Assembly: GCA_964402895.1 (NCBI GenBank)
Contig: CAYODR010000001.1
Coordinates: forward strand, 123,002-187,001
Length of the DNA: 64,000 nucleotides
DNA from: an uncultured Candidatus Saccharibacteria bacterium
GTDB taxonomy: Bacteria > Patescibacteriota > Minisyncoccia > Phycocordibacterales > UBA9973
Direction of reading: 5' to 3'
Under the pieces are notes generated by a model. That model saw only the letters and a program-made list of their open reading frames with translations, made no database searches and was not told the origin of the DNA. Made by a program: the position numbers and the translations under genes. Shown here piece by piece: positions 13,815 through 64,000 of the stretch. The first letter of the stretch is position 1, and every line of letters starts with the position of its first letter.

Positions 13815-14558
13815 CTAAGAAGCGCAACGAACATAATGATCAGCATCAACAACCCTACCTATATTACCACTACCAAAACTTTGACGATAATTACGAGAAG
13901 TTGATGTATAAGCTGGAGTAGATGACCAATAATAATTAACAGTAAAACCATACTGTGTGACATCACTACTGCTATAATCATAAATAGCTTTGAATACTTC
14001 AACTGGCGGAAGTCTTTTTCCTACATTAGCACAAATATTATTTGCATTGGCCCAATTAGCAGAACCACTATCTGCAGGGTCAAGTGTCATAACACTTTGG
14101 GTATCAACTGCATAATGAGTGTCATTGTAATATACTGCAACACCGAAATTTTTATCTTGTAATCCATCTGCTGCTGCAAAGTGTGAGGATCCAGCTGGAA
14201 CATCACTCGTCCTCACCACACATCTAACCCTATCTGCTCCTGCGATACTAGTTAAAGCATCTATCATAGGCTGTATTGAAGAATGTGCTGTGACTCCTGT
14301 TGTATTGTATGTACATAAACCTACAAAAGTACCGTTATCATTGTGATACATGATAGCTTGAGTTTGTAAGTTCTTTAGATTTGATTTAATCGCCGCTACT
14401 CTGCCTTTGGTCCTGACGCTGTTTAGACTTGCAATTACCACCGTTGCTAAGATACCTATAATAGCTATCACTACTAATAGTTCTATGAGAGTGAAGGCTT
14501 TTCTATAAGTGGTATACCCCCCTATTAGACTTTTTGAAAGGTTGGTTAATTTTTTCAT
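13815..14558 (-). CDS. Type IV pilin-like protein with a C-terminal CLec/FGE-like domain (pilin-CLec paralog 1). Candidate DGR-type target architecture.
   Basis: Prepilin leader MKKLTNLSKSLIGGYTTYRKA|[17 protein letters not shown]. The C-terminus contains NWANANNICANVGKRLPPVEVFKAIYDY...WSSTP...YVRCAS, resembling the FGE/CLec fold and the ...GFRCA ending of DGR variable regions. Paralogous to 30450..31253 and 63268..64000. Confidence 0.75.
   Translation of the reverse strand: MKKLTNLSKSLIGGYTTYRKAFTLIELLVVIAIIGILATVVIASLNSVRTKGRVAAIKSNLKNLQTQAIMYHNDNGTFVGLCTYNTTGVTAHSSIQPMIDALTSIAGADRVRCVVRTSDVPAGSSHFAAADGLQDKNFGVAVYYNDTHYAVDTQSVMTLDPADSGSANWANANNICANVGKRLPPVEVFKAIYDYSSSDVTQYGFTVNYYWSSTPAYTSTSRNYRQSFGSGNIGRVVDADHYVRCAS
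14517..14522 (-). repeat. Poly-G tract (6 nt, coding strand) in the Gly-Gly-Tyr codons of this pilin
   Basis: The plus strand shows cccccc; the gene is in frame with 6 G. Confidence 0.6.
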
Positions 14559-26038: not shown

Positions 26039-26626
26039 TTAAGGATTCTGATGACAACCTGCTGCTGTAGCGCTATATGACCCATCGTATACTGCGCCAG
26101 ATGAACCTATACAAAACCAATCTCCAGATACTGAAGCAGCACTATCTTTTTGTTTAACATTAACAGAAAATCTATTTTTAACATCGCCACAACTCGTGCC
26201 ACAACCTAAGTACATTTTATTTGCAGCATTATCATCATTCGCATTTGTTGGAAGTTTAGATGTAATACTATTACAGATTTCTATTGCCCTATCTCTGTTT
26301 AGTGCAGTTATGAGTATTCTACTAGAACAAGTATACGCTCCACTACCACTTTGAGAATCTCCCATAAACCATGAACGAGTAACAAAAGTACTAAAATCCC
26401 CCGTCTCCGCATAATGCTCCATTGCTAAATTAAAGAGTTGTCTAGCTTCAGACTTAATGGCTGCAGTTTTAGCTTTTTCTCTTGCTCCATTTAGACTAGC
26501 TATTACTACTGTTGCTAGTATTCCGATGATTGCGATGACGACTAGGAGTTCAATGAGAGTGAAGGCTCTACTTTTTAGTGTATACCCCCCCTTAAAATTC
26601 TTTAGTTGGTTTGATAGGTTTTTCAT
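26039..26626 (-). CDS. Type IV pilin-like protein (Cys-rich C-terminus); paralog of 28711..29307
   Basis: Leader [21 protein letters not shown]|[19 protein letters not shown], with a shared internal [24 protein letters not shown]. Confidence 0.75.
26595..26601 (-). repeat. Poly-G tract (7 nt) at the GGY codons of this pilin
   Basis: The plus strand shows ccccccc; the gene is in frame. Confidence 0.6.
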
Positions 26627-28710: not shown

Positions 28711-29307
28711 TTATGGATTTTGAGTACAACCTTGTCTAGAAAGATTATAAACTCCTTCACTAACAACACCTGAAGTTCCAACGCAAAACCAATTTCCTGA
28801 AGTTCCTTCACTATCTTTCAGCTTTATATTTATTCCAAACCTATTTACTTTATCTGTACAACCACCAGTACATCCTAAATTAAGTTTATTTCTTGCTGAA
28901 TTGTCAGACCTATTAGTTGGTAATTTATTTACCATACTATTACATATCTCTATTGCTTTCTGTCTGTTGAAAGTATTTATGTTAAATGCAGATGAACAAG
29001 TACTTTCACTGGTAGAACTTGTTTGACCATCAGCTCTAACCCAACTATTAGGCATGTTAGATAAAAATGTAGTAAAATCCCCTGTCTCTGCATAATGTTC
29101 CATAGCAAGATTAAAGAGTTGTCTGGCTTCAGATTTTATAACTGCAGTTTTAGCTTTGTCTCTTGCGCTGTTTAGTGTTGCTATTACAACCGCAGCAAGA
29201 ATTCCTATGATTGCGATAACAACAAGTAGTTCGATTAGAGTGAAGGCTTTTCTATAAGAGGTATACCCCCCCATTTGTGTTTTAGAGATTGCCTGCAAAT
29301 CTTTCAT
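28711..29307 (-). CDS. Type IV pilin-like protein (Cys-rich C-terminus)
   Basis: Leader [21 protein letters not shown]|[19 protein letters not shown]. Paralog of 26039..26626. Confidence 0.75.
29266..29272 (-). repeat. Poly-G tract (7 nt) at the GGY codons of this pilin
   Basis: The plus strand shows ccccccc; the gene is in frame. Confidence 0.6.
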
Positions 29308-30449: not shown

Positions 30450-31253
30450 CTAGGCGGCACAACGAACGTGGGTATAATTACCAGTAGGGTTCCTAACCAC
30501 ATTACCAAGATTGAAAGCCTGTATATAAGCGATACTGGACTGGGTAGCAGAAGGGGTAGATGACCACCAACCGTTAGCAAAAAACCCATACTGAGTTACA
30601 TCAGTACTACTATAGTCATATATGGCTTTAAAGACTTCGATTGGGGGAAGTCTCTTTCCTGCTGCAGCACATCTATTATTTGCTTCAGCCCAGTTTGTTT
30701 CTGCACCATTGTTTGCAGAATCAAGTGTCATTACGCTTTGAGCATCAACAGCGTAGTGGTTTCCTTTGAACCAGACTGCTACACCAAAATTTTTATCTTG
30801 AAGTCCATCTGCTGCAACAAAGTGTGTAGCTGAAGTACTAGGAACATTTGAAGTACGAACAACACAGCGTACATTCTCATCTCCTGCAATATTCTTAAGA
30901 GCATCTATCATTGGTTCAACTGATGAATGATAACCTGTTTGAATAGTAGATGGTGCTACCCATGTACAAAGTCCAGCAAAAGTCCCATTGTCTGCATGGT
31001 ACATTATTGCCTGAGTCTGAAAATTCTTTAGATTGGATTTGATAGCTGCAATACGTCCTTTGTCTCTGGCTGAGTTTAGTGATGCGAGGACTACTCCAGC
31101 GAGTATACCTATGATTGCGATGACTACGAGAAGTTCGATTAGAGTAAAAGCTTTATTAAAAGAATTATTTCTAAACTTTTTTAACGAAAATAGGGTCTTT
31201 CTATGATTGCCCCCCCTATTTTCGCCTTTGGCAAAATGGTTAATTTTTATCAT
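30450..31253 (-). CDS. Type IV pilin-like protein with a C-terminal CLec/FGE-like domain (pilin-CLec paralog 2). It directly abuts the DGR reverse transcriptase and is a candidate DGR target.
   Basis: Long leader MIKINHFAKGENRGGNHRKTLFSLKKFRNNSFNKA|[19 protein letters not shown] (the ORF-track extension beyond 31253 is probably spurious; a TATAAT sits 8 nt upstream of this ATG). C-terminus NWAEANNRCAAAGKRLPPIEVFKAIYDY...WWSSTP...NLGNVVRNPTGNYTHVRCAA. Confidence 0.75.
   Translation of the reverse strand: MIKINHFAKGENRGGNHRKTLFSLKKFRNNSFNKAFTLIELLVVIAIIGILAGVVLASLNSARDKGRIAAIKSNLKNFQTQAIMYHADNGTFAGLCTWVAPSTIQTGYHSSVEPMIDALKNIAGDENVRCVVRTSNVPSTSATHFVAADGLQDKNFGVAVWFKGNHYAVDAQSVMTLDSANNGAETNWAEANNRCAAAGKRLPPIEVFKAIYDYSSTDVTQYGFFANGWWSSTPSATQSSIAYIQAFNLGNVVRNPTGNYTHVRCAA
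31210..31216 (-). repeat. Poly-G tract (7 nt) at the Arg-Gly-Gly codons of this pilin
   Basis: The plus strand shows ccccccc; the gene is in frame. Confidence 0.55.
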
Positions 31254-42983: not shown

Positions 42984-42985
42984 GA

Positions 42986-43592: not shown

Positions 43593-43632
43593 ATTTAAAA
43601 ATATATTATTAATAATTTATATAAATACTATA

Positions 43633-44583: not shown

Positions 44584-46153
44584 TCAAAGAGTGCATATTT
44601 CTGTCGGTATAATATCCTTGCCCTCCACTTTTCGCCATTTGAGCAGTTCCCGTCTTGGCTGCTACAGTATAGTGCTCAAGCTTTCTGTTATAACTTTCCT
44701 CTACTGAATGAACCATCATCTTGTTAATGGCGGCAATTGATTCTGGTTTCAGTATTGGTTCAGTACTTTTTTCATATTTTAGTTTCTTTATAATTCCCGT
44801 TTCCTCACGAATTGTTTTGGCAATATGCGGAGTAACCAAATACCCACCATTAGCTAAGACTGAAAACCCTCGTACAATATTTATAGGTGTTGTTGCAATT
44901 CCTTGACCAAAAGCAGCATTGGCAAAGTTAACATCATTATTGCCACTAATACCTGACATTTGCCCATTGACTTCACCGGGCAAATCTATTCCCGTTCGCT
45001 CACCGAGCTTATATCTATCTACCATATATTCTCTAAAAGCATCTTTACCCATTTTCTGTCCGACAAAAACCATACCGGTATTTAAAGACTGACTGATAAC
45101 CTCTTGCATACTGATTACCCCTCTACCCTTTTTATCAAAGTTATTGATTGTTCTATCTTGCACCACGACAGAGCCGGTATCGTTGTAAGTAGTCTCTGGC
45201 GTGACAGCTCCTACATCAATTGCGGCAGCCATTACAAGTGGTTTAATAATAGAGCCCATCTCATATCTTCCTTGAGATAAAATATTAGTATAAATACTTG
45301 GGTCTTTTTCCAATCTATAATTATTCAAATCAAAAGTCGGTGCACCCGCCATCGCGACAATTTCCCCTGTATATGGGTCCATCACAAGTCCGCCCACACT
45401 TTCACTATTCCAATCTTTTTGAATATTATTGATAATAACTTCAAGTTGAGACTGAACGGTTGGTTCAAGTGTTGTGATAATATCACCTGTAGCGGTAGTA
45501 TTTTTAAATACAGATGATTGTACATTGGCAAAAATCTCAGCAAAAAAATTAATATATAAACTACTACCATTTCTGGTTAAAATATTATTATATTTTTCTT
45601 CAAGCCCGTATGTACCTGTAAGCAAATCACCTCCACGATAAGAGACGAAGCCCAAAGTATGTGCTGCCAAAGTATTTCCAGGATAAAATCTCCATTTTTG
45701 CCTTATCAAAAGAACTCCCTTTAATTTCATCTCAGAAATCTCATTTGCAATCTCGGTGTCTATCTTTTCCAAAATCTCTTCATAAGGATCATTTTTCTTT
45801 GTAGCTCTGCGTATAAAAATTTCTTCATCAATATCTATAACCTCACTTAGTCTTTGATAAATATATTCAGCATCTTCTATTTCATTTGGGTTTACCGCTA
45901 AAATAAAGCCGCTCTCAACAGTTGCGGCAGCAACAGTAGTACCATCTTTATCACTAAAATAAATAAGTCCACGATCAAAAGGCGCACCCGATGAAGATAC
46001 ATACTGTCTTTCAGCATCTTCTTTTGCACTATCTGAGTTTAAAATTTGTAATTGAAATAATCTTAAAACAACAAAAAAGCCCAGGAAAATAATAAGTCCT
46101 GTGAGAATATATATTCTTCTTTTTTGAATACTAGTATCCGACATTCCAAGCAA
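44429..46153 (-). CDS. ftsI: Penicillin-binding protein (class B transpeptidase, FtsI-like)
   Basis: SxxK (SIIKP), SxN, and KTG (KTGTAQ) motifs, with an N-terminal transmembrane segment. Follows ftsL and rsmH. Confidence 0.85.
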   Translation of the reverse strand: MLGMSDTSIQKRRIYILTGLIIFLGFFVVLRLFQLQILNSDSAKEDAERQYVSSSGAPFDRGLIYFSDKDGTTVAAATVESGFILAVNPNEIEDAEYIYQRLSEVIDIDEEIFIRRATKKNDPYEEILEKIDTEIANEISEMKLKGVLLIRQKWRFYPGNTLAAHTLGFVSYRGGDLLTGTYGLEEKYNNILTRNGSSLYINFFAEIFANVQSSVFKNTTATGDIITTLEPTVQSQLEVIINNIQKDWNSESVGGLVMDPYTGEIVAMAGAPTFDLNNYRLEKDPSIYTNILSQGRYEMGSIIKPLVMAAAIDVGAVTPETTYNDTGSVVVQDRTINNFDKKGRGVISMQEVISQSLNTGMVFVGQKMGKDAFREYMVDRYKLGERTGIDLPGEVNGQMSGISGNNDVNFANAAFGQGIATTPINIVRGFSVLANGGYLVTPHIAKTIREETGIIKKLKYEKSTEPILKPESIAAINKMMVHSVEESYNRKLEHYTVAAKTGTAQMAKSGGQGYYTDRNMHSLIGYFPASNPRFVIYLFNIYPKGALYATQTLGDPFFDMVQFLGSYYTISPDR

Positions 46154-46451
46154 AAGCCTTCTTAGGAGCAGAGAATGTTATTTGTTTAGCTGATTTCAGA
46201 CCTAAAGAGCTTGCGTATTCTTCTGTAAGTTTCTTTTGATTTTGTAAATAAACAAGTTCTTGTTTACCAATACTTGAAATCAAAAGTTTGATTTCATTTT
46301 GAATATCTTTTTGCTTAACTACTGAGAAAGTTATTGAGCCGATAAAATATAGATAACAAGCAAACAACATGCCTGTACCGAGCCACATGTAAGTCGTAAT
46401 GCCCCTAACTATTTTATTCAAATTTGAAGTTGTTTCTGCAAAATTATTCAT
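46131..46451 (-). CDS. ftsL: FtsL-like cell-division protein
   Basis: Small bitopic protein located between rsmH and ftsI. Confidence 0.5.
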   Translation of the reverse strand: MNNFAETTSNLNKIVRGITTYMWLGTGMLFACYLYFIGSITFSVVKQKDIQNEIKLLISSIGKQELVYLQNQKKLTEEYASSLGLKSAKQITFSAPKKAFAWNVGY

Positions 46452-46452
46452 T

Positions 46453-47355
46453 TTATTGTTTTTCTATAATTCTTAGTTTTGCACTGCGTGCTCTAGGATT
46501 TTCTAATAATTCTATCTCGCTTGGAATGATTGGTTTTTTTGTGATAACGCGTTTATCTTCTGCTCCATCTTTACTCCATCTTTTCACTACTCTATCTTCA
46601 AGAGAATGAAAGGTAATGACAGCAATCCTTCCCCCGACATTTAGGTGTGTCCACCAATTGTCTAATGCTTCCCGAACTACCTGAAGCTCATCATTAACGG
46701 CAATTCTGAGAGCTTGAAAGGTTTTTGTGGCTGGATGTATCTTTTTCTTTTTAGTAAAAAAATTGTTTTGAGGAAAAATATTTTGAATAATATCAGCAAG
46801 TTCTTTGGAGGTATCAATAGATTTTGATTTTCTAGCTTCAACGATTGCCTTAGCTATTTTTCTAGATTTTGGCTCTTCACCATATGCATAGATAATATCG
46901 GCAATAGATTCTTCTGCCCATTCATTTACAATATCATGAGCATTAAATCCTGTATGACTTCCCTCTTTTGAAAAACTCATTTGAAGTGGTGTATCGCTGT
47001 TGAAAGAAAATCCTCTATCATCATCTAATAGCTGAAAGGTGCTTGTACCCAAATCAAGCAGTACCTTGTCTACCATCTTCTCTCCAGTTTGATTTAAGAT
47101 ATAATCCGCATCTTTGAAATTGGATTGAACAAAGTAAACATTTTTAGCTAAAGAAAACTTTTGATCAAATCTAAACTTTGCTTTCTCATCTAAATCAGTG
47201 CAGATAAGCTTGATATTGTCTCCATAAACTTCAACAATCTTTTGGCTGTGTCCTCCACCGCCAAATGTTCCATCAACAACAATATCACCATCCTGAATAT
47301 TTAACCCTCTTATTGATTCATCTAAAAGAACAGAAATATGTATAACCTTGTCCAT
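46453..47355 (-). CDS. rsmH: 16S rRNA (cytosine1402-N4)-methyltransferase RsmH (MraW)
   Basis: HISVLLDE...VDGTFGGGGHS SAM-binding motif. Confidence 0.9.
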   Translation of the reverse strand: MDKVIHISVLLDESIRGLNIQDGDIVVDGTFGGGGHSQKIVEVYGDNIKLICTDLDEKAKFRFDQKFSLAKNVYFVQSNFKDADYILNQTGEKMVDKVLLDLGTSTFQLLDDDRGFSFNSDTPLQMSFSKEGSHTGFNAHDIVNEWAEESIADIIYAYGEEPKSRKIAKAIVEARKSKSIDTSKELADIIQNIFPQNNFFTKKKKIHPATKTFQALRIAVNDELQVVREALDNWWTHLNVGGRIAVITFHSLEDRVVKRWSKDGAEDKRVITKKPIIPSEIELLENPRARSAKLRIIEKQ

Positions 47356-47357
47356 GA

Positions 47358-47804
47358 CTATAAAATACCTACATTACTTAATCTCTCTGCAAGTGCATCA
47401 GCATCTTTTTCAATTCCTTTTTGAAATACATTCCAGGTATCTTCGTCCCAAATCTCAACCCTAGAATGAACGCCAATAATAGTAACCTTGCTTTTAAGAC
47501 CAGCTTTTTCCTTTAAAAAGTCTGGGATTAAAATTCTGCCTTGTGCATCTACTGAAGCCTCTGTGGCACCACCCAAAAGGTACCGGTTGAGGTTCCTCGC
47601 ATCTGCATGGAGCATTGATGAATTAGCGAGCTTTTCAGAAATTTTCTCCCATTCTTTTGTTGTGAAAACAAATAGACATTTATCAAGTCCTTTGGTGATT
47701 ACAACACTTTTGCCCATAGACTTACGAAATTTGACTGGAAACGACAGCCTTTTTTTATCATCTATGTTGTGTGTGTATTCTCCGATTAACATATTTTTTA
47801 CCAC
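47358..47804 (-). CDS. mraZ: Transcriptional regulator MraZ
   Basis: Duplicated MraZ/SpoVT-AbrB-like domains (DDKKRLSFP...DAQGRILIP). Confidence 0.85.
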   Translation of the reverse strand: MVKNMLIGEYTHNIDDKKRLSFPVKFRKSMGKSVVITKGLDKCLFVFTTKEWEKISEKLANSSMLHADARNLNRYLLGGATEASVDAQGRILIPDFLKEKAGLKSKVTIIGVHSRVEIWDEDTWNVFQKGIEKDADALAERLSNVGIL

Positions 47805-47921
47805 TTCTTCCCACTTGGTACCATTTTAACCCACAAGTACTTTACAATGCAAGTAAAAAGAATGTGGATAACCCAATATAAAAAACCCGAAGACCTATGG
47901 TCTTCGGGTTTTCAAATATTT

Positions 47922-48383
47922 TTATTCTACAGAGATAATTTCGTATTCAATAACACCCTTTGGGGCTTCTACTGATACGACATCACCTTTCTTTTTTTCA
48001 AATAAAGCACTTCCAAGCGGACTTTTATAAGATATCTTGCCTGCTAGCATGTCTGATTCTTCACTACCCACGATTGTATAGATACGATTATTTGTATCAC
48101 CAATCTTTTTGATAGTGACAGAAGATCCTACACCAATAGCACCAGTAGCTGAGGGCTCAACCACAACAGCATTGTTTAGAATATGCTCAATTGTAGAAAT
48201 TCTCTCTACGAGTCTTGCTTGAGCTTCTCTAGCGCTGTGGTACTCAGCATTTTCAGAGAGATCACCAAGAGATTTTGCATATTCAATAGCCGCGATTATC
48301 TCAGCGCGCTTTACTTGAGTGAGTTCTTGATACTCTTTCTCAAGTGCTTCTTTATTTTCTTTTGTTATATATTCTTTCTTCAT
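47922..48383 (-). CDS. greA: Transcription elongation factor GreA
   Basis: N-terminal coiled coil with acidic tip ...GDLSENAEYHSAREAQ and a C-terminal FKBP-like domain. Confidence 0.9.
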   Translation of the reverse strand: MKKEYITKENKEALEKEYQELTQVKRAEIIAAIEYAKSLGDLSENAEYHSAREAQARLVERISTIEHILNNAVVVEPSATGAIGVGSSVTIKKIGDTNNRIYTIVGSEESDMLAGKISYKSPLGSALFEKKKGDVVSVEAPKGVIEYEIISVE

Positions 48384-48484
48384 ATAATAAAATATGCTTC
48401 CCTATAATGATATCCCGTCCAAATAAATGGACGGGATATGTATTCACATTATACACCAACTTATAAAAAAAGTCTAATCAAATA

Positions 48485-49184
48485 TTATTTACCACAGGCA
48501 AATAAAAGGGTATCCGTCTTCAAAAAATTAGATATTGCTCCATTATAACCTACATTTTCCATATGAATATAAAATCTCCTATCTAAATTTGAAAATAACT
48601 CTGTTGAAGTACCGTGCACTGCAGCTAAAAGTCCAAAAACAACATCTCCTTGATAACTCATGTGGAGAGCTTTTAATTGTTCCAAACTTGTCATCCTTGC
48701 ACCTTCATTTAAGCAGGTATTCATTGAGTTTATATAATTTTGTGTACCCACACTATGAGTCCCTAATATCTCAACCACCCCCCTATTGTCCACTGAGAAA
48801 TTCCTATCATTAAAATTCGCTGATACTCCAAAATTTAGATTTTTCTGCATAGTATAGCCATCGGGAATGATATAGCATCCCGACCTCACACCTCCAGAAT
48901 TTAATGAGTTCATCATATCTAGTATTTTAGCATCCTCACAAAGCCCTCCATAAGTCTTATTTGTATCAAAATACAATTCAGCTTGAAGACCGATATTTTT
49001 TAAACTTGATTTAATAGCCGCTATTCTACCTTTAGTGCGAGCAGAATTAAGTGATGCAATGACTACTCCTGCAAGGATACCTATAATAGCTATCACTACT
49101 AATAGTTCTATGAGAGTGAAGGCTTTTCTATAAGTGGTATACCCCCCCTATTTGTCTTTTAGAGTCCGCCTTTAATTTTTTCAT
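48485..49184 (-). pseudogene. Type IV pilin-like gene whose N-terminus is out of frame because its poly-G tract is 7 nt where 6 nt would be in frame (phase-OFF copy or homopolymer sequencing error)
   Basis: With 6 G the upstream ATG at 49184 reads [40 protein letters not shown]... continuous with ORF 48485..49096. As sequenced, that frame hits TAG after 18 codons. Confidence 0.6.
49142..49148 (-). repeat. Poly-G tract (7 nt) causing the frameshift in this pilin
   Basis: The plus strand shows a-ccccccc-t. Confidence 0.6.
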
Positions 49185-49278
49185 ATAAATATTATAACAT
49201 TTATATTTATACAAACAAATACTATACGCTTCAAAATACATTCCTATTTTTAGACACGGACAAACATTCACTCCAAAA

Positions 49279-49376
49279 CAAATATGTCTTTCTGGGGGCA
49301 CGCATAAAACTCTGCTGAGTTTTTGCTACGCTCGCACCAGTCGCGCTGCGCGAGTCCCACCAGAAAGACATATTTG
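49279..49376. repeat. Hairpin element B1 (type I, inverted orientation, diverged core)
   Basis: Arms caaatatgtctttctggggg / cccaccagaaagacatatttg. The loop is the reverse complement of the A2/C2 loop, with an inner hairpin aaaactc-agca-gagtttt. Confidence 0.6.
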
Positions 49377-49414
49377 TTTTTTCATTTTGTGTATTTTTAA
49401 ATTTTAAGAACGAA

Positions 49415-49511
49415 AAACAAAGCCTTTTTGCCGTGTCTCGCAGGCTGACTGAGCCGAGAGTCAGGTGATTTCTTAGCAAAGAAATACACCGACGGCAAAA
49501 AGGCTTTGTTT
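49415..49511. repeat. Hairpin element B2 (type II, core GGCTGACTGAGCCGAG in forward orientation)
   Basis: Arms aaacaaagcctttttgccg / cggcaaaaaggctttgttt. The loop is the reverse complement of the A1 loop. Confidence 0.6.
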
Positions 49512-49611
49512 GAAGTGATGGATATTAAATAAGCAATATGGTTTTGGGGGTTTTACGATTCAAGTAAAAATACTTATTTAGACTATGTAGTAATTCTGAT
49601 ATAATAAAAAC

Positions 49612-50076
49612 ATGGAAAATATTAATATAAATAGAGTAGAAAATAACTCAGAAAATACAAACGAACAAGCTATAAATATTTCAAAAAAGCTTTTAGAAAT
49701 AAAAAATGATTTTATTTCTAAAATATCAAGTCTTATAGAAAATGATGAAAATCTTAAAAATGCTCTCAGAAAATATACAGGCTCAAGTAATGCTCAATAT
49801 CTTCTTGATGGATTTGAATTATATTTTAGTGGAGGAACATTAAACTATACAGATTTAGATTTTGAAAAAAATATATTAGCTAATCCAGAAAAGACAGCTT
49901 CATTAGAAAATATAAACTCAGTTGAAAATGAATTAAATAATAGAATAGAATCTATTACAAATATGATTTCAGATTTTTCTGGAAATGAAGATGAAGCTTA
50001 CGAATTAATAGAGCTTATACACAAAAGAGAGATTTTGCCTAAATTAAATACAGAAGAAACTCCTATATTAGTTTAA
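49612..50076 (+). CDS. Hypothetical Asn/Glu-rich protein
   Basis: 154-aa ORF; the only plus-strand gene in this neighbourhood. Confidence 0.4.
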   Translation: MENININRVENNSENTNEQAINISKKLLEIKNDFISKISSLIENDENLKNALRKYTGSSNAQYLLDGFELYFSGGTLNYTDLDFEKNILANPEKTASLENINSVENELNNRIESITNMISDFSGNEDEAYELIELIHKREILPKLNTEETPILV

Positions 50077-50120
50077 TCTAAATAAACCGCTTAATTTTTA
50101 AGTGGTTTATTTATTATATT

Positions 50121-51797
50121 TTATTTCAATAAATCTAAATTCTCAGCATACCATTCTATCACTGGTCTCATTGCATAAGTTGCACCGCTTGAAGTTTTAG
50201 GACCATCTTCCATAAGTACAGTAAAGGCATACTTTGGATTCTCAGATGGGAAAAATCCTATAACCCATGAGTTTACTCTGGTATTAGATTTTATCTGTGC
50301 AGTACCAGTTTTGGCTGATACAGCCACAGCACTGTTTCTAAGTGGACCACCAGTACCCTCTGTCACCACCTGTCTCATACCTTCTTGAACAGCTTTATAA
50401 TGATTTGGTGCAATATCCAAAATATCTTGCCTCACTCTATTATTGAAATTTTTATGAATAGTTGGATTGACCAATTTCCCATTAGAAGAAATCCCCGCAA
50501 CCCCTCTTAATACTTGTATAGGCGTCACCTGCAGTCCATACTGACCAATAGATGTGTTATATGTATCTCCAACTCTCCAAGCATCACCATTAAATACGCG
50601 AGCTTTCCATTCAACACTTGGAATGACACCTTCAAGCTCCCCAGATATATCTATACCGGTCTTTTCTCCTAGGCCAAACATTCTAAAATATTTTTCAATG
50701 TTATTGATACCAATACCTCTTTGATCCCCAAAACCTCCACCTATTTGATAAAAATAAATGTTTGAAGAAACAGCAATAGCTTTGCGTAAATCCACATATC
50801 CATGAGAATCATTATCTTTAAAAATTGTAAACTCTTTTGGATTGTATGGATTTGGAATACGAAGCTCACCAGAACTAAATATATGCTTTCTCTCATCAAT
50901 CACACCCTCATTTAAAGCTGCAATTCCTAAAAATGGCTTAACAATAGATCCGGGAGTATAAAGACCCTCTGTCATACGATTCAAAAATACCTTGCCTGCC
51001 CCCTGCATATAGCTATTAATTGTCTCAACATCTTTTCCTAAAGATATAATACTTGAGTTGTATTCTGGATAACTCGTAATAGCGATAAGCTCTCCTGTCT
51101 CAATATCCATCACTGCTCCTCCCCCACCAACATATCCAGACCGCTCTGCTAAGCTTTTGATTCCATTAAATAAAGTTTCTTGAACTCTAGCATCAATAGA
51201 AAGATAGACATTGTCGCCCGGTGTTGGATACTCAACCACACTTCCAGATAAAATGTTTCCACTGACACTTGTCTCAATCAATCTCTTACCATTTTTTCCA
51301 GCAAGTTCTAAATCAAAATCTTTTTCAATCCCATCTTTTCCGACAATTCGCTCTCGCCAAAAATTCCCGTTATTGTCTTTTGCAGGATATGATACATAGC
51401 CAAGTAAACTAGAGAATCCTTCTTTCTTAATATATTCACGAAATGTCGGGACATCTTCATTGCCTAAACTATTCCAAATAAGCTCTACTCCATTTCTATC
51501 ATAAACAACACCTCTATCTGCAAATACAGGAATATGGTCTAAACTATTTTGTTCACTTCTTTTTGCATAAAATTCATGCTTAACTATTTGTATTTGACCA
51601 AGTCTACCTATAAAAAACAAAGAAATAAATATTACAAAAGCAAAAAGAATATTGAGCGATCTTTTAGAGATAGCGCGTTCAACACGACCCTCAAATTGCT
51701 GAGTATCGAAAGATGGAAGATTGTGTGAATCTATCAAAATCTCATCTGGATCTATTTTATAAACTTGATATTTCTTTTTTCCTCTCCACCAAATCAT
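50121..51797 (-). CDS. mrdA: Penicillin-binding protein 2 (class B transpeptidase, elongation type)
   Basis: SxxK (SIVKPF), SSN, and KTGTAQ motifs, with an N-terminal transmembrane segment. Confidence 0.8.
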   Translation of the reverse strand: MIWWRGKKKYQVYKIDPDEILIDSHNLPSFDTQQFEGRVERAISKRSLNILFAFVIFISLFFIGRLGQIQIVKHEFYAKRSEQNSLDHIPVFADRGVVYDRNGVELIWNSLGNEDVPTFREYIKKEGFSSLLGYVSYPAKDNNGNFWRERIVGKDGIEKDFDLELAGKNGKRLIETSVSGNILSGSVVEYPTPGDNVYLSIDARVQETLFNGIKSLAERSGYVGGGGAVMDIETGELIAITSYPEYNSSIISLGKDVETINSYMQGAGKVFLNRMTEGLYTPGSIVKPFLGIAALNEGVIDERKHIFSSGELRIPNPYNPKEFTIFKDNDSHGYVDLRKAIAVSSNIYFYQIGGGFGDQRGIGINNIEKYFRMFGLGEKTGIDISGELEGVIPSVEWKARVFNGDAWRVGDTYNTSIGQYGLQVTPIQVLRGVAGISSNGKLVNPTIHKNFNNRVRQDILDIAPNHYKAVQEGMRQVVTEGTGGPLRNSAVAVSAKTGTAQIKSNTRVNSWVIGFFPSENPKYAFTVLMEDGPKTSSGATYAMRPVIEWYAENLDLLK

Positions 51798-51800
51798 GAA

Positions 51801-52052
51801 TTAAATTCTCAATCTATTTAAAATAAATCTGTATAAAAGTATAAGTAAAACTGCGAAAATAGTATACTTAAAACTACTTATACTATAAGACCCGACAGAA
51901 TACAATGCGTCAGCAAATACGGCTGGAATTACTAAAAAAATATTTTTAGGAGCAAAAAACAATGAAATTATAAATATCGCTCCCTGCGCCCAAACAGGTA
52001 GCCATATTACAGAAAATAGTAAAATAACAACTAAGAGTAATGTCCTCAACAT
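51801..52052 (-). CDS. Small membrane protein, possibly MreD-like
   Basis: 83-aa protein with 2-3 transmembrane segments, directly upstream of the PBP2 gene. Confidence 0.3.
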   Translation of the reverse strand: MLRTLLLVVILLFSVIWLPVWAQGAIFIISLFFAPKNIFLVIPAVFADALYSVGSYSISSFKYTIFAVLLILLYRFILNRLRI

Positions 52053-52055
52053 TTA

Positions 52056-52511
52056 TTAACTATACCATTTAAAAGATATTTTTGATATAAATCTAGTAAT
52101 TAACAGAAAAACTAATATTATAAAAGTATAAAATACTAATTTATCTGAGAAAAAAGTCGCTAGTGGTATATAGATTATATATAGTACATAATCCATTGGA
52201 TTACCCATTTCTATCTTATCTTTAATTCTAGGATCATCTAAATCACCATATGATAGATTGGTCTCATTATTCATGAATTCACTATGACCATTTATCTTTA
52301 ATACTTTTTTCATCATATCTCGCTCTTTGGAAAAATATTCTGCTTTTTGTAATCTATATTTTTCAACTGCGATAAACACTTCATTAAAAAGTTCTAATAC
52401 TTGAGCTTTCGCATTTTGCCAGATGCTTTTATTGGGAGCATCTTGCGCTAGTGCATAATTTGAACCAAATAAAATAAAAGTTAAGAAAAAAGAAATGATG
52501 AGAATTTTCAT
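52056..52511 (-). CDS. Hypothetical protein with a signal peptide and a C-terminal transmembrane segment
   Basis: 151-aa ORF. Confidence 0.35.
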   Translation of the reverse strand: MKILIISFFLTFILFGSNYALAQDAPNKSIWQNAKAQVLELFNEVFIAVEKYRLQKAEYFSKERDMMKKVLKINGHSEFMNNETNLSYGDLDDPRIKDKIEMGNPMDYVLYIIYIPLATFFSDKLVFYTFIILVFLLITRFISKISFKWYS

Positions 52512-52517
52512 GGTATT

Positions 52518-53336: not shown

Positions 53337-53351
53337 CCTTTAAAAAATATT

Positions 53352-53672
53352 TTATCTTTTTTTGACAAAATACTTTCTTGTAAAATCAGAACCATTAAAA
53401 GGTTCTTCAAATACAATTAAAGTATCTCCGTCAAAAAACTTTTCCTCTTCACTATAGATAGCAAATTCACTTTCGTAAAATTGCTTCCCTACATCATTCT
53501 TGATTTGAACCCAATCCTTAGAATCAGGATCATTTTGGTCCGTTTGCTGTACGGCTTCATGTTTTACCATGATCCATACAGTGGACTCTGTTGAATCTTG
53601 AGTTTTGGCACCAGCCAAAAACAAGGTTATCGCTACCAAAACGGCAACGATGAAGAATAAGATATTTTTCAT
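53352..53672 (-). CDS. Hypothetical secreted protein
   Basis: 106-aa ORF with a signal peptide. Confidence 0.4.
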   Translation of the reverse strand: MKNILFFIVAVLVAITLFLAGAKTQDSTESTVWIMVKHEAVQQTDQNDPDSKDWVQIKNDVGKQFYESEFAIYSEEEKFFDGDTLIVFEEPFNGSDFTRKYFVKKR

Positions 53673-53815
53673 AACTTTTATTATATGTAAATGTTCTAGC
53701 CCCTACTCCTTCTTTAATCATATCATATATGATTGTAATTGTCAAACCTAATTTCATATAGTATATATTTTCTTGCAAACTTTCTAAAATAGAGTAAAAT
53801 GTCTATGTTCTAGTT

Positions 53816-53888
53816 GGGCCCTTAGCTTAGTTGGTAGAGCGCTGCTTTTGCAAAGCAGAGGTCAGGAGTTCGAATCTCCTAGGGTCCA
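53816..53888 (+). tRNA. tRNA-Ala (anticodon TGC)
   Basis: Acceptor gggccct/agggtcc, anticodon stem-loop ctgct-ttTGCaa-agcag, T-loop gagTTCGAAtctc. Confidence 0.8.
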
Positions 53889-57203: not shown

Positions 57204-57701
57204 TTAAAAATTACACCTAGGATTAGATACATACCAACCTAAATCTTCTGGATATACTCCTGTTTTACAATAACCACTATTTTCAAGATATACTCTTATA
57301 GCAAACTTGTCTTTATCTATAACACTTGAAATCATTTTATAAGCTTCATTGCCACTTATATATTTAGGATCTTTTGGAATTTCAGATATATAATTAGGAA
57401 CGAGATCTGTTTCATAAAAACTCATATCATAATATAAATCACCAGAACCAGGGCTTTTTTGTGCTGGATATCTACCATGATCCATATAATACATATTCAT
57501 AGCCATTTGTACTTGTTTGATATCTGAAATCCTCTTTGCATCTCTCGCCCTACTTCTCGCACTATTTAAATTTGCAATCACAACTGTAGCTAATATTCCG
57601 ATAATTGCAATGACTACTAGGAGCTCAATGAGAGTGAAGGCTCTACTTTTTAGTGTATATCCCCCCCCTACACTTTTTGAAAGGTTGGTTAATTTTTTCA
57701 T
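57204..57701 (-). CDS. Type IV pilin-like protein (the start is taken at MKKLTNLSKS; the ORF-track extension to 57737 covers the promoter)
   Basis: Leader [21 protein letters not shown]|[19 protein letters not shown], with a TATAAT 8 nt upstream of the ATG. Confidence 0.75.
   Translation of the reverse strand: MKKLTNLSKSVGGGYTLKSRAFTLIELLVVIAIIGILATVVIANLNSARSRARDAKRISDIKQVQMAMNMYYMDHGRYPAQKSPGSGDLYYDMSFYETDLVPNYISEIPKDPKYISGNEAYKMISSVIDKDKFAIRVYLENSGYCKTGVYPEDLGWYVSNPRCNF
57661..57668 (-). repeat. Poly-G tract (8 nt) encoding Gly-Gly-Gly in this pilin
   Basis: The plus strand shows cccccccc; the gene is in frame with 8 G. Confidence 0.6.
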
Positions 57702-63267: not shown

Positions 63268-64000
63268 CTAGGCGGCACAGCGGACATATCGATTGGTGGG
63301 TGTCCCTATATTAATTACACCACTACCAAAGGTAAGATGATAAGCTTCAAAACCAGATGTACTACTAAGGGTAGCAGACCAATAAGTAGTAGTTGTTCCA
63401 ATAGTAAATCCTAAATTACCGCCCTCAGCTCCATAATCATTGATAGCTTTAAGTATTTCAATTGAAACAAGTCTTTTGCCAACATTAGAACATCTTAAAA
63501 TTGCGGTGGCATAATTAGTAATACCTCCGTTGTTTCCAGTATCAAGTGTCATTACCCCCTGAGCATCAACTGCGTAATGTCTTTCATTAAAATAAACTGC
63601 TACACCAAAGTTCTTGGTCTCAAGAGAGTCTGCTGCAAAAAAATTATCGATTAGTGGTACATCACTTGTCCTCACCACGCACCTGACCCTATCTGCTCCT
63701 GCAATACTTACGAGCGCATCTATCATAGGCTGTATTGAAGAATGTGCTGATACGCCTGTTTTATTGTATGTACAAAGTCCTGCAAAAGTACCATTGTCTG
63801 CGTGGTACATGATGGCTTGAGTTTGAAGATTCTTTAGATTGGACTTTATTGCTGCTACTCTGCCACTAGTGCGAGCTGAGTTTAAAGATGCGATGATGAC
63901 TCCTGCGAGTATTCCGATGATTGCAATAACTACTAGGAGTTCAATCAGAGTGAAGGCGTAACTTTTAGTGGTATACCCCCCCATTTGCCTTTTAGAGTCC
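63268..64000 (-). CDS. Type IV pilin-like protein with a C-terminal CLec/FGE-like domain (pilin-CLec paralog 3). It is 5'-partial: the start codon lies beyond the window end.
   Basis: In-frame upstream sequence ...DSKRQMGGYTTKSYA|[20 protein letters not shown]-terminus ...NVGKRLVSIEILKAINDY...YWSATLSS...GTPTNRYVRCAA. Confidence 0.75.
   Translation of the reverse strand, partial: DSKRQMGGYTTKSYAFTLIELLVVIAIIGILAGVIIASLNSARTSGRVAAIKSNLKNLQTQAIMYHADNGTFAGLCTYNKTGVSAHSSIQPMIDALVSIAGADRVRCVVRTSDVPLIDNFFAADSLETKNFGVAVYFNERHYAVDAQGVMTLDTGNNGGITNYATAILRCSNVGKRLVSIEILKAINDYGAEGGNLGFTIGTTTTYWSATLSSTSGFEAYHLTFGSGVINIGTPTNRYVRCAA
63936..63942 (-). repeat. Poly-G tract (7 nt) at the GGY codons of this pilin
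   Basis: The plus strand shows ccccccc; the gene is in frame. Confidence 0.6.

What the first reader, a model, noticed from the sequence alone, without database searches (positions are those of the whole stretch)
48485..49184. Pilin paralog in the phase-OFF state: a 7-G tract where 6 G restores a full prepilin
From the ATG at 49184 (minus strand) the sequence reads atg aaa aaa tta aag gcg gac tct aaa aga caa ata ggggggg tat acc.... With 7 G the frame hits TAG after 18 codons. With 6 G it reads MKKLKADSKRQIGGYTTYRKA|[25 protein letters not shown]... continuous with ORF 48485..49096, a complete prepilin with the same leader as its paralogs. The only lesion is the homopolymer length. The promoter (TTGTTT...TATAAT) and hairpin elements B1/B2 lie just upstream.
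Basis: seen in the sequence. Interest (0 to 1): 0.55.

Follow-up and report, generated by a model that had tools for sequence, protein, structure and literature searches.

The report
Poly-G frameshift switch in pilin leader
A pilus-protein gene in an uncultured ultra-small (CPR) bacterium is knocked out of frame by one extra G in a run of Gs; all six sister genes keep the same G-run in the part of the protein that is later cut off, so it is probably a reversible on/off switch of a well-known kind, seen here in a new group of organisms.

Summary
From ATG 49184 (minus strand) a G7 run (49142-49148) leads to TAG after 18 codons. With G6 or G9 the frame gives a 232/233-aa prepilin that has no other lesion and models confidently as a pilin with a C-type-lectin-like head.

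The context was missed. All seven pilin paralogs in the window have a G6-G8 run at the same leader position, and only this one is out of frame. GGG is 13% of Gly codons here, yet 13 of 15 tract glycines are GGG while nearby synonymous sites are almost randomised. A copy from another sample has identical flanks and G10, also out of frame. Prepilin families with G8-G14 leader tracts, mostly out of frame, occur in unrelated low-GC lineages.

Best explanation (about 0.6): a slipped-strand ON/OFF switch sited in the cleaved leader, so in-frame lengths give the same mature protein. It resembles Neisseria opa and pilC.

Switching itself is not shown. No reads or second assembly cover this tract, and the genome has other fixed lesions (thyA frameshift, a stop inside a reverse transcriptase), so a plain pseudogene remains a real rival. 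Assembly error is unlikely.

This is a new member of a known kind. Interest is moderate.

The parts
49191..49218 (-). Promoter-like element: -35 TTGTTT (49218-49213), 16-nt spacer, extended -10 TGtTATAAT (49199-49191). Only 6 nt separate it from the ATG, so the mRNA is predicted to be leaderless or nearly so (inference).
   Evidence: Sequence. The same layout is conserved in p14, p57, L002 and L117 in alignment A3. It is not listed by the generic scan, because the -35 matches 3 of 6.
49128..49184 (-). OFF-state reading frame as assembled: ATG 49184, 18 codons (MKKLKADSKRQIGGVYHL), TAG 49130-49128.
49142..49148 (-). G7 homopolymer (C7 on the + strand), the proposed slipped-strand switch. G6 or G9 is in frame; G7 is out of frame.
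49121..49184 (-). Coding region of the prepilin leader (class III signal peptide, 21 aa when in frame, Ala at -1). It is removed on maturation, so the Gly number encoded by the tract would not affect the mature protein.
   Evidence: The N_methyl / TIGR02532 match starts at residues 19-22.
48485..49120 (-). Mature pilin coding region (211 aa plus TAA): N-terminal [17 protein letters not shown] helix, beta-sheet, and a C-type-lectin-like C-terminal domain. It is intact.
   Evidence: AlphaFold model with pLDDT 87.5 and pTM 0.78. Foldseek hits to the 8oks Bd2740 C-terminal domain and to C-type lectin domains.
48410..48439 (-). Hairpin (atatcccgtcc ... ggacgggatat) between the pilin stop and the greA start. 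It is a possible terminator but has no T-tail.
   Evidence: Sequence. Not flagged by the terminator scan.
13815..14558 (-). Paralog p14 with G6 at 14517-14522 (ATA GGG GGG TAT), in frame. It shares a 72-nt exact repeat with p49 (14451-14522 = 49076-49147).
26039..26626 (-). Paralog p26 with G7 at 26585-26591 (AAG GGG GGG), in frame.
28711..29307 (-). Paralog p29 with G7 at 29266-29272 (ATG GGG GGG), in frame.
30450..31253 (-). Paralog p31 with a long 35-aa leader and G7 at 31210-31216 (AGG GGG GGC), in frame. It has an Lcl_C/DUF1566-like C-terminus.
57204..57701 (-). Paralog p57 with G8 at 57661-57668 (GGG GGG GGA, three glycines), in frame.
63268..64000 (-). Paralog p63 with G7 at 63976-63982 (ATG GGG GGG), in frame. 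Its start lies beyond the window end (= P0004, leader MKKLQADSKRQMGGYTTKSYA).
49275..49380 (.). Palindromic element of about 100 nt (27-nt arms, 93% complementary) upstream of p49. Copies lie upstream of p14 (14726-14822) and p57 (57954-58034), and the p49 copy is in the opposite orientation. It probably does not belong to the switch.
   Evidence: Fold z-score -8.4. No Rfam family.

Best explanation
p49 is one of a family of at least seven solitary genes in a Patescibacteria (CPR, Paceibacteria-type) genome. Each encodes a type IV pilin-like protein with a C-type-lectin-like head, most likely an adhesin or ligand-binding subunit displayed on a pilus.

Each gene carries a short poly-G run in the DNA that encodes its cleaved leader peptide. 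During replication the run can gain or lose a G by slipped-strand mispairing. Lengths that keep the frame (G6 or G9 in this cassette) give a full prepilin. Other lengths (G7 here, G10 in L002) end translation after 18 or 19 codons. Because the run sits in the leader that prepilin peptidase removes, every in-frame length yields the same mature protein, and an OFF copy wastes only a tiny peptide. The mRNA is predicted to be leaderless and there is no in-frame start after the tract, so OFF should mean fully off.

As sequenced, six copies are ON and p49 is OFF. Independent switching of each paralog would let a clonal population vary which lectin-tipped pilins it displays.

Shown: the tract, the two frames, the intact ORF, the family-wide conservation of the G-run against codon bias, and length differences between copies with identical flanks. 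Inferred: that the length changes reversibly at a useful rate in this organism, that the leader is cleaved after Ala-1, that the mRNA is leaderless, and that the proteins are adhesins.
For: 1. Frames and tract were verified.

2. All seven paralogs have G6-G8 at the same leader position, and p49 is the only one out of frame.

3. The run looks selected at the nucleotide level. GGG is 13.4% of Gly codons in 39 other ORFs and 9% in the mature pilins. Only 2 of 91 Gly-Gly pairs elsewhere are GGGGGG. Yet 13 of 15 tract Gly codons are GGG, while third-position identity in the invariant [17 protein letters not shown] block is only 0.44.

4. Tract length varies within one cassette type. p49 has G7 and L002 (a different sample) has G10, with 17 nt upstream and about 66 nt downstream identical. 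p14 and L117 have G6. The only in-frame lengths are multiples of 3. A third relative, P0073, is also called from the internal MIAIIGILA start.

5. The Gly number is tolerated: two or three glycines occur in the ON copies.

6. There is no other lesion. The AlphaFold model has pLDDT 87.5, and a 77%-identical full-length ortholog exists.

7. The same architecture with G8-G14 recurs in unrelated low-GC lineages and is mostly out of frame in consensus assemblies. In Lapin-027 bin54, 13 of 16 copies are G10 OFF and 2 are G9 ON. Other cases are a 'Tenericutes' MAG, Elusimicrobiaceae, and the complete genome of Elusimicrobium posterum Dip510.

8. A 7-G run is long enough in principle: M. tuberculosis glpK switches at GGGGGGG (PMC6667613).

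9. Assembly quality is good. Logan contigs are 100% identical to the window over 19.7 kb.
Against: There is no direct evidence of switching. I had no reads, and no second assembly covers this tract: the Logan contigs span 31469-48827 and 49490-57654 only. I never saw two lengths at the same locus; L123 and L127 turned out to be different genes.

G6-G8 is at the short end for contingency loci. Neisseria tracts are 9-21 (PMC5953494).

The genome carries other fixed lesions: a thyA +1 frameshift outside any long run and a TAG inside the reverse transcriptase. An ordinary dead copy is therefore credible.

Paralogs share ancestry and some recent gene conversion (the 72-nt exact p14/p49 repeat), so the codon statistics overstate independence. 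Some relatives have interrupted or absent tracts (IGWYT, MGRYT, QIRFRY), so the tract is not obligatory.

The ON/OFF tallies in the other MAGs may be distorted, because many of those tracts lie at contig ends within repeated cassettes.

The mismatch-repair status of the organism is unknown.
Confidence: 0.6

Rival explanations
1. Ordinary pseudogene. A one-off +1 insertion, at a site that happens to be mutation-prone, has killed one redundant pilin paralog. There is no adaptive or reversible switching. The G-run is kept in the family for another reason, such as a conserved Gly-Gly in the leader, or homogenisation of the 5' cassette by gene conversion.
For: The genome carries other fixed lesions. 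thyA has a +1 frameshift at CAA[A]GAA that is reproduced in an independent contig, and the reverse transcriptase has an in-frame TAG. G7 is short for a contingency tract. Six intact paralogs make p49 dispensable. The 72-nt exact p14/p49 repeat shows that gene conversion homogenises the cassette. Gly-Gly is conserved at the protein level even where the run is interrupted in relatives, as in GEGYT and GRGY.
Against: The rest of the ORF is untouched: 211 codons remain open in a 33%-GC genome, and the model is confident. GGG GGG is used in every paralog, although synonymous sites next to it are nearly saturated. A protein-level Gly-Gly constraint would allow GGT or GGA, which are 76% of Gly codons here. 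The same cassette has expanded to G10 elsewhere. Independent lineages have longer tracts at the same place.
Confidence: 0.2
2. The gene is expressed despite the G7. Either ribosomes slip +1 on GGG GGG G, or RNA polymerase slips on the G-run, so a fraction of products are full length. On this view the genomic 'OFF' is a low-expression state or a programmed recoding site.
For: A tRNA-Gly paired to GGG can re-pair perfectly one base downstream within the run (from the sequence). In the gut MAGs the out-of-frame length (G10) is the overwhelming consensus across paralogs. That would be odd if none of them were ever made.
Against: There is no recognised +1 stimulator. The 0-frame codon after the run is GUA, which is neither a stop nor an obviously rare codon, and the first stop is four codons further on. 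Six of seven paralogs in this genome are simply in frame, which argues against an obligatory recoding mechanism. ON copies with the 3n length exist in every lineage examined.
Confidence: 0.08
3. Sequencing or assembly error. The true sequence is G6 and the gene is intact.
For: Homopolymers are the classic site of indel errors. The tract abuts a 72-nt exact repeat shared with p14, which has G6, and the region is missing from the Logan contigs I could fetch.
Against: The window is 100% identical to independently built Logan contigs over 6906 + 4587 + 8234 nt, including the thyA frameshift. The other six G6-G8 tracts and the long housekeeping ORFs checked are in frame; thyA is the one exception. 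The seventh G lies next to p49-unique sequence, so k-mers containing 'CAAATA + G7 + TATACC' must exist in the reads; no other paralog could supply them.
Confidence: 0.07

Closest known systems
Neisseria Opa family (CTCTT pentamer repeats in the leader-peptide coding region)
   Same: A multi-copy family of surface adhesin genes is scattered around the chromosome. Each copy has its own simple repeat in the part of the gene that encodes the cleaved leader. Each switches independently by slipped-strand frameshifting, so in-frame repeat numbers give the same mature protein (PMC3960869; abstract of PMC3745409).
   Different: The repeat here is a G homopolymer of 6-8, not a pentamer. The proteins are type IV pilin-like with a class III (prepilin) leader, not Sec-dependent outer-membrane beta-barrels. 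The organism is an uncultured CPR bacterium. Switching has not been measured.
Neisseria pilC1/pilC2 poly-G phase variation
   Same: A poly-G/C tract inside the reading frame of a pilus-associated adhesin gene switches expression ON and OFF by frameshift (PMC5953494, which cites Jonsson 1991). From my own knowledge, the tract lies in the signal-peptide region.
   Different: The pilC tracts are G9-20. PilC is a large tip- or retraction-associated protein, not a pilin with an N-terminal methylation motif. There are two copies, not a family of seven or more.
Campylobacter / Helicobacter poly-G contingency loci in low-GC genomes
   Same: In an AT-rich genome, long G/C runs are rare and concentrated in surface-structure genes, where they act as hypermutable switches (abstracts of PMC8355987 and PMC8437040).
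   Different: Those tracts are typically G8 or longer, and they lie mostly in glycosylation, capsule, LOS or restriction-modification genes, not in prepilin leaders.
Mycobacterium tuberculosis glpK GGGGGGG tract
   Same: A 7-G run in a coding region gains a base and produces reversible loss of function in natural populations (PMC6667613). This shows that a run as short as the one here can work as a switch.
   Different: It is a single metabolic gene, not a surface-protein family, and the tract is not in a cleaved leader.
Type IV pilins / class III signal peptide proteins
   Same: There is an N-terminal cleavage/methylation motif, the FTLIELL hydrophobic helix with Glu at +5, and a long alpha-1 helix followed by a beta-sheet.
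   Different: The leader is 21 aa rather than the short 5-10 aa leaders of the canonical small CPR pilins found in the same search. Position -1 is Ala, not Gly. There is an extra C-type-lectin-like C-terminal domain.

Membership tests
Type IV pilin-like protein (prepilin-type N-terminal cleavage/methylation domain) | N-terminal motif: a short basic leader, the cleavage site, then F-x-x-x-E and a hydrophobic helix of about 20 residues. | tested here: met
   For the 6-G-restored protein, PF07963 scores 31.5 bits (cut-off 21.2) and TIGR02532 scores 30.3 bits (cut-off 16.3). All six paralogs also pass PF07963.
Type IV pilin-like protein (prepilin-type N-terminal cleavage/methylation domain) | Gly at position -1 of the cleavage site. 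| tested here: not met
   All seven window paralogs have Ala at -1 (..RKA|F..SRA|F..NKA|F), whereas the canonical small CPR pilins in the same search have ..RG|F. From my own knowledge, Ala at -1 is the one substitution reported to allow some cleavage. Cleavage here is an inference.
Type IV pilin-like protein (prepilin-type N-terminal cleavage/methylation domain) | Pilin fold: an extended alpha-1 helix packed on a beta-sheet. | tested here: met
   The AlphaFold2 model has a helix at 24-75 followed by beta-strands, with pLDDT 87.5 and pTM 0.78. This is a prediction only.
Type IV pilin-like protein (prepilin-type N-terminal cleavage/methylation domain) | Prepilin peptidase and an assembly ATPase/platform encoded in the genome. 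| not testable with these tools
   None was found among the window ORFs scanned against Pfam; small ORFs and the ATP-synthase region were not all scanned. A T2SSE/MshEN ATPase lies next to a related pilin in L117, from a related genome in the same sample. The rest of the source genome was not available.
Simple-sequence-repeat (homopolymer) phase-variable contingency locus | A homopolymeric tract inside the 5' coding region whose length sets the reading frame, with no other inactivating lesion. | tested here: met
   G7 lies at codons 13-15. G6 or G9 restores a 232/233-aa ORF, and the rest of the gene is intact.
Simple-sequence-repeat (homopolymer) phase-variable contingency locus | The tract is maintained by selection (over-representation against composition and codon usage). 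| tested here: met
   Seven of 11 G/C runs of 6 or more lie in 0.7% of the window. Thirteen of 15 tract Gly codons are GGG against a 13.4% background. Synonymous sites nearby are nearly randomised. Caveat: the paralogs are not independent.
Simple-sequence-repeat (homopolymer) phase-variable contingency locus | Tract length differs between closely related sequences while the flanks stay the same. | tested here: inconclusive
   p49 has G7 and L002 has G10 with identical flanks, and p14 and L117 have G6. But these are different genes or genomes that share a cassette, not the same locus. The candidate same-locus pair L123/L127 proved not to be one locus.
Simple-sequence-repeat (homopolymer) phase-variable contingency locus | Length heterogeneity within a population, and reversibility. 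| not testable with these tools
   No read data were available. The Logan contigs of the source sample stop at 48827 and 49490.
DGR (diversity-generating retroelement) variable protein | A C-type-lectin-fold C-terminal domain carrying the variable region. | tested here: met
   The Foldseek top hits are the Bd2740 C-terminal domain (8oks) and C-type lectin domains. p14 and p31 hit Lcl_C/DUF1566 below the cut-off.
DGR (diversity-generating retroelement) variable protein | A template repeat matching the variable region, with mismatches at adenines, next to a reverse transcriptase. | tested here: not met
   A reverse transcriptase lies at 29339-30418 between p29 and p31, but it has an in-frame TAG. 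Neither blastn nor an adenine-aware scan found a template repeat in the window for any pilin 3' end. p49 lies 19 kb from the RT.
Programmed +1 ribosomal frameshift site | A slippery codon followed by a stop or slowly decoded codon, or another conserved stimulator, with the out-of-frame arrangement conserved among homologs. | tested here: not met
   The codon after the run is GUA and the stop is four codons later. Six of seven paralogs, and the ortholog P0002, are in frame.

The most novel reading that the evidence does not exclude
This reading goes beyond one broken gene to a general, undescribed design. Families of large, lectin- or adhesin-tipped type IV pilin-like proteins with an unusual Ala(-1) leader would each be gated by a poly-G tract placed in the cleaved leader. 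The length changes would then be invisible in the mature protein. Most copies would be OFF and a few ON at any time.

The design would occur in a CPR episymbiont, where it sits alongside a DGR-like reverse transcriptase among the pilin genes, suggesting two layers of variation: which adhesin is displayed and what it binds. With longer tracts (G8-G14) it would also occur in unrelated low-GC lineages: gut 'Bacilli' and 'Tenericutes' MAGs and Elusimicrobia, including a cultured Elusimicrobium isolate. It would amount to a pilin 'phasome' that lets uncultured, host-dependent bacteria vary their attachment specificity.
Probability: 0.4. Interest if true: 0.65.

Novelty: new member of a known kind. 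Interest (0 to 1): 0.5.

Why it matters
CPR/Patescibacteria are thought to live attached to host cells, and type IV pili have been shown to mediate that attachment in Saccharibacteria (PMC9894109, abstract). How they vary or choose their binding specificity is poorly understood.

A set of lectin-tipped pilins that can each be switched on or off by a simple G-run would give a tiny genome a cheap, heritable and reversible way to vary attachment. It would add CPR to the organisms with contingency loci. In the held literature I found no report that links Patescibacteria with homopolymeric or phase-variable tracts, or that describes poly-G tracts in prepilin leaders.

There is a practical side too. 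Annotation pipelines call these genes as truncated proteins starting at 'MIAIIGILA' (P0001, P0037, P0073) or miss them. The repeated cassettes also break assemblies, so the repertoire is probably undercounted.

The hypothesis can be tested directly with existing reads.

Tried and rejected
1. I tried to find the same locus in other assemblies. Exact-protein look-ups of the truncated ORF, of the ortholog P0002 and of P0073 returned nothing. Look-ups of both neighbours (the greA side and the upstream ORF) gave Logan contigs from the source sample that end at 48827 and 49490, short of the tract.

2. A strict DNA pattern for this family's leader found nothing in GTDB species representatives or in JGI metagenomes. 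Only relaxed patterns gave hits, most of them high-GC Planctomycetota/Verrucomicrobiota that I treated as chance.

3. L123 (G8) and L127 (G9) looked like one gene with two tract lengths. They share only a 322-nt 5' cassette at 92% identity, so I rejected them as same-locus evidence.

4. My first ON/OFF classifier counted an ATG formed by 'AT' plus the first G of the tract as a start (L127, L129, L134). These are probably OFF relative to the canonical start, so the tallies are approximate.

5. I considered the upstream hairpins as a regulator or invertible promoter. The element is flipped as a whole upstream of p49 relative to p14 and p57, occurs at only three of the seven genes, and matches no Rfam family. 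I did not pursue it.

6. I tested whether the G-run could be a Shine-Dalgarno-like site for a downstream start. There is no start codon within range.

7. I looked for a DGR template repeat with blastn and with an adenine-aware scan, and found none.

8. I checked whether TGA might be a sense codon, because none of 46 ORFs ends in TGA. Well-annotated genes have no internal TGA, and the apparent thyA case is a frameshift, not read-through.

9. Cluster look-up gave no names or accessions for the source genome.

10. The Gracilibacteria hypervariation paper and the 2026 CPR pilus preprint are not precedents. Paul et al. 2017 was not held.
Full report
**Observation**

On the minus strand an ATG at 49184 is followed by atg aaa aaa tta aag gcg gac tct aaa aga caa ata, then exactly seven G (49148-49142), then tat acc. 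As assembled, the frame gives MKKLKADSKRQIGGVYHL and stops at TAG 49130-49128. Removing one G gives a 232-aa protein, MKKLKADSKRQIGGYTTYRKA|[18 protein letters not shown]..., that runs into ORF 48485..49096. Adding two G also restores the frame, with three glycines.

In the pilin frame a TAG lies immediately 5' of the tract. The first possible start after it is GTG 49096, already inside the hydrophobic helix. So no alternative start can rescue the protein.

One refinement concerns the nature of the lesion. Relative to paralogs p63 and p29 (CAAATGGGGGGG) it can be read as an inserted A. Relative to p14 and L117 (ATA+G6) it is an extra G. In both cases loss of one G repairs the frame.

**What the gene is**

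The restored protein passes the curated thresholds for the prepilin N-terminal cleavage/methylation motif: PF07963 at 31.5 bits against a cut-off of 21.2, and TIGR02532 at 30.3 against 16.3.

An AlphaFold2 model built on a 32-sequence alignment is confident (pLDDT 87.5, pTM 0.78). It shows a disordered leader, a long alpha-1 helix (residues 24-75), a beta-sheet and a C-terminal alpha/beta domain. The best structural matches for that domain are the C-terminal domain of the Bdellovibrio Bd2740 protein (8oks) and many C-type lectin domains.

A 77%-identical full-length ortholog exists in another NCBI assembly (P0002). So the frame encodes a coherent, conserved protein with no other visible lesion: a pilin-anchored, lectin-like, probably ligand-binding subunit.

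LeuRS from the window is closest (64-67% identity) to proteins labelled Patescibacteria, Candidatus Paceibacterota or Nomurabacteria. The nearest relative outside the source contig is only 71% identical. The organism is therefore a poorly sampled CPR bacterium.

Searching all six frames for the pilin N-terminus found seven paralogs, all on the minus strand. They are p14, p26, p29, p31, p49, p57 and p63, named after their position in kb. They are solitary genes scattered among intact housekeeping genes: murJ, leuS, ddl, the pentose-phosphate genes, gap, the mraZ-rsmH-ftsL-ftsI cluster, greA, prfA and others. No pilus machinery was found among the window ORFs scanned.

Every paralog has a poly-G run at the same place in its leader:
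- p14: ATA GGG GGG (G6)
- p26: AAG GGG GGG (G7)
- p29 and p63: ATG GGG GGG (G7)
- p31: AGG GGG GGC (G7)
- p57: GGG GGG GGA (G8, three glycines)
- p49: ATA GGGGGGG (G7)

Only p49 is out of frame.

In this 33.5%-GC window there are just 11 G or C runs of six or more, and seven of them are these tracts.

**Is the run more than codon chance?**

- In 39 non-pilin ORFs, GGG is 13.4% of Gly codons, and only 2 of 91 Gly-Gly pairs are GGGGGG.
- In the mature parts of the pilins, GGG is 10 of 109 Gly codons.
- Yet 13 of the 15 tract glycines are GGG, and the two exceptions sit at the 3' edge of the run.
- In the 17 residues that are invariant in all seven proteins ([17 protein letters not shown]), mean pairwise third-position identity is only 0.44. 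Synonymous sites have largely randomised between most paralogs.

A constraint on the peptide alone would allow GGT or GGA. The homopolymer itself appears to be conserved.

The nominal probabilities (about 4e-10 and 3e-13) overstate the case. Paralogs share ancestry, and p14 and p49 share a 72-nt exact repeat (14451-14522 = 49076-49147), which points to recent gene conversion.

**Tract length varies between copies**

Two other assemblies have relatives called from the same internal 'MIAIIGILA' start as the truncated p49 ORF: P0037 and P0073.

The contig encoding P0037 is L002, from a different sample (SRR23593165). It reads atg aaa aat ttc ata cca acg aac tct aaa aga caa ata, then ten G, then tat acc act tat aga aaa gcc ttc. 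That is out of frame, and G9 would restore it.

Aligned with p49, 17 nt upstream and about 66 nt downstream of the tract are identical; only the run length differs, G7 against G10. Copies of the same cassette type with G6 (p14, L117) are in frame.

In relatives the run is sometimes interrupted (IGWYT, MGRYT, GEGYT) or absent (QIRFRYSSYRKA). That mix of 'locked' and variable versions is what one expects when such tracts are gained and lost.

I could not obtain DNA for P0002 or P0073.

**The same design elsewhere**

I used a relaxed pattern: G6 or longer, then 15-45 nt, then a degenerate Ala-Phe-Thr-Leu-Ile-Glu-Leu coding stretch. In GTDB species representatives it returned mostly high-GC hits that I regard as chance.

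It also returned several low-GC genomes with many hits at fixed spacing:
- 'Uncultured Bacilli' Lapin-027 bin54: 16 copies, of which 13 are G10 and out of frame, 2 are G9 and in frame, and 1 is G8 and out of frame.
- Lapin-018 bin91.
- An 'uncultured Tenericutes' MAG: G9-G11, with 2 of 7 copies in frame.
- An Elusimicrobiaceae MAG: G13 and G14.
- The complete genome of the cultured Elusimicrobium posterum Dip510: G10, out of frame.

A second scan of JGI metagenomes for G8 or longer found further low-GC examples with G8-G12.

These genes encode large proteins (400 to more than 970 aa) with a conserved pilin-like N-terminus and divergent C-termini. All share Ala at -1. By contrast, the canonical small CPR pilins found in the homology search have short ...RG|FTLIEL leaders and no tract.

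Two caveats apply. Many of these tracts lie at contig ends inside repeated cassettes, so the assembled length may not be locus-specific. My ON/OFF classifier is also approximate.

**Mechanism proposed**

The run is a slipped-strand mispairing switch. It sits at codons 13-15, so an OFF copy produces only an 18-residue peptide.

It also lies in the leader that prepilin peptidase removes. In-frame lengths (two or three glycines are both seen in ON copies) would therefore give identical mature proteins.

The promoter-like TTGTTT-16-TGtTATAAT ends 6 nt before the ATG, with no Shine-Dalgarno sequence. This layout is conserved in p14, p57, L002 and L117. It predicts a leaderless mRNA whose only usable start is the ATG upstream of the tract, so OFF should be tight.

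These last points, together with cleavage after Ala-1, are inferences.

A 7-G run is long enough in principle: M. tuberculosis glpK varies reversibly at GGGGGGG (PMC6667613).

**Rivals**

(a) Plain pseudogene. This genome does carry fixed lesions.
- thyA is frameshifted by an extra A at about 35084 (CAA[A]GAA). Removing it raises the Pfam match from 228 bits over model positions 44-264 to 267 bits over 8-264. The lesion is present in an independent Logan contig.
- The reverse transcriptase between p29 and p31 has an in-frame TAG.

So a dead copy is credible; I give it 0.2. Against it are the intact remainder of the ORF and the evidence that the tract is selected.

(b) Recoding by ribosomal or transcriptional slippage. 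This is possible on a G-run, but there is no stimulator, and six of the seven paralogs are simply in frame (0.08).

(c) Assembly error. The window is 100% identical to Logan contigs over 6906, 4587 and 8234 nt. The other tracts and the long ORFs checked are in frame, thyA excepted. The seventh G abuts p49-unique sequence, so G7 k-mers must exist in the reads (0.07).

**What could not be done**

No reads were available, and no second assembly covers the tract. The Logan contigs of the source sample span window 31469-48827 and 49490-57654. Some of the breaks coincide with 31-mer repeats between paralog cassettes, so they say nothing about heterogeneity at the tract. I never observed two lengths at one locus. 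Reversibility is therefore inferred, not shown.

**Comparison with known systems**

The closest analogue in logic is the Neisseria opa family. Its roughly 11 scattered adhesin genes each carry a CTCTT repeat in the leader-peptide coding region and switch by slipped-strand frameshifting (PMC3960869; PMC3745409).

Next is pilC, a pilus-associated adhesin gated by a homopolymeric G/C tract of 9-20 within the reading frame (PMC5953494). The concentration of G-runs in surface genes of an AT-rich genome parallels Campylobacter.

The mechanism is thus a known kind. What is new is the host lineage, the gene family (lectin-tipped, Ala(-1) prepilins), the placement in a class III leader, and the fact that a whole paralog family carries the tract.

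Full-text searches found no report linking Patescibacteria with homopolymeric or phase-variable tracts, or describing poly-G tracts in prepilin leaders. That library is incomplete, so this is absence of evidence only.

**Verdict**

It is the best explanation at about 0.6, and much better supported than a single frameshift would suggest, but switching is untested.
- Novelty: a new member of a known kind.
- Interest is moderate (0.5). A phase-variation specialist would not be surprised by the mechanism. For CPR biology it offers a concrete hypothesis about how attachment proteins are varied, and one that can be tested with existing reads.

Noticed in passing
window 29339-30418 (-): A reverse transcriptase lies between pilins p29 and p31. 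It is a single reading frame interrupted by an in-frame TAG in ...LPIGNITS*FFANVYL.... From memory, that is the position of the conserved Q in the IGxxxSQ motif of DGR reverse transcriptases. Read through, it matches RVT_1 over positions 14-203 of 205 at 56.9 bits. Several neighbouring pilins have C-type-lectin / DUF1566-like C-termini, the usual DGR targets. However, blastn and an adenine-aware scan found no template repeat in the window; only a 23-nt shared 3' end between p31 and p63 (30445-30467 and 63263-63285) turned up. It may be a decayed or split DGR, or the template may lie elsewhere.
   Followed up: partly
window 34277-35177 (-), frameshift near 35084: thyA (thymidylate synthase) is frameshifted. 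The first 31 codons, from ATG 35177, are in a different frame from the rest, consistent with one extra A in CAA[A]GAA, which is not a long homopolymer. Removing it restores a full-length Pfam match (267 bits, model positions 8-264 of 266). The lesion is also present in the independent Logan contig L138, so it is in the reads.
   Followed up: yes
whole window: None of 46 ORFs ends in TGA (34 TAA, 12 TAG). RF-1 (prfA) is encoded at 58133-59098. I found no in-frame TGA inside well-annotated genes, so TGA looks avoided or unused, not reassigned. With about 15% TGA stops expected, zero of 46 is unusual.
   Followed up: partly
window 49275-49380; 14726-14822; 57954-58034: A palindromic element of about 100 nt (27-nt arms, conserved stems, an inner hairpin with apparently compensatory changes between copies) lies upstream of p49, p14 and p57. 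The p49 copy is in the opposite orientation. The fold z-score is -8.4, and it matches no Rfam family (best hit 26.7 bits, below that family's gathering score of 49). It could be a small mobile element or an unknown RNA.
   Followed up: partly
window 49394-49434 and 49492-49532: A second inverted repeat (41-nt arms, 76% complementary, exact 20-mer ACGGCAAAAAGGCTTTGTTT in both arms) lies between p49 and the divergent ORF 49612-50076. A related sequence lies upstream of p14. The Logan contig of the source sample ends here, at 49490.
   Followed up: no
window 48778-48783 (-), inside p49: A second G6 run (GAC AAT AGG GGG GTG) lies within the p49 coding region. The ortholog P0002 has Met where p49 has Arg (DNMGVV against DNRGVV), so this run is probably a lineage-specific accident and not a designed tract.
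   Followed up: partly
window 14451-14522 = 49076-49147; 26550-26584 = 57625-57659: Exact repeats of 72 nt and 35 nt link the 5' cassettes of different pilin paralogs (p14/p49 and p26/p57), while their C-terminal domains differ. This suggests gene conversion or cassette exchange at the 5' ends. It also explains why short-read assemblies break at these genes.
   Followed up: partly
p29 (29266-29272), p63 (63976-63982); relatives P0002, P0010 (L118 around 1849): In some copies the codon just before the tract is ATG (ATG GGG GGG TAT...), and gene callers start the protein there (MGGYT...). In L118 the canonical upstream ATG is out of frame, and only this internal ATG gives a prepilin (MGRYTIKSKA|F). 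So a short-leader start just before the tract may be a second way to express these genes.
   Followed up: no
L009, L013, L015, L016, L020, L023, L037, L045, L071, L080, L092, L105, L110 (CANQIV01); L006, L027, L049, L075, L094, L095, L111 (CANAXT01); L106 (NZ_CP152277.1): Gut 'Bacilli' and 'Tenericutes' MAGs, and the complete genome of Elusimicrobium posterum Dip510, carry families of large pilin-like genes with G8-G14 tracts in an Ala(-1) leader. Most are out of frame in the consensus sequence. Some sit in tandem, 1.5-1.9 kb apart.
   Followed up: partly
window 49184, 14558, 57701 and relatives L002, L117: The pilin genes have an extended -10 box (TGnTATAAT) ending only 6 nt before the ATG, with no Shine-Dalgarno sequence. 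This suggests leaderless transcripts.
   Followed up: no
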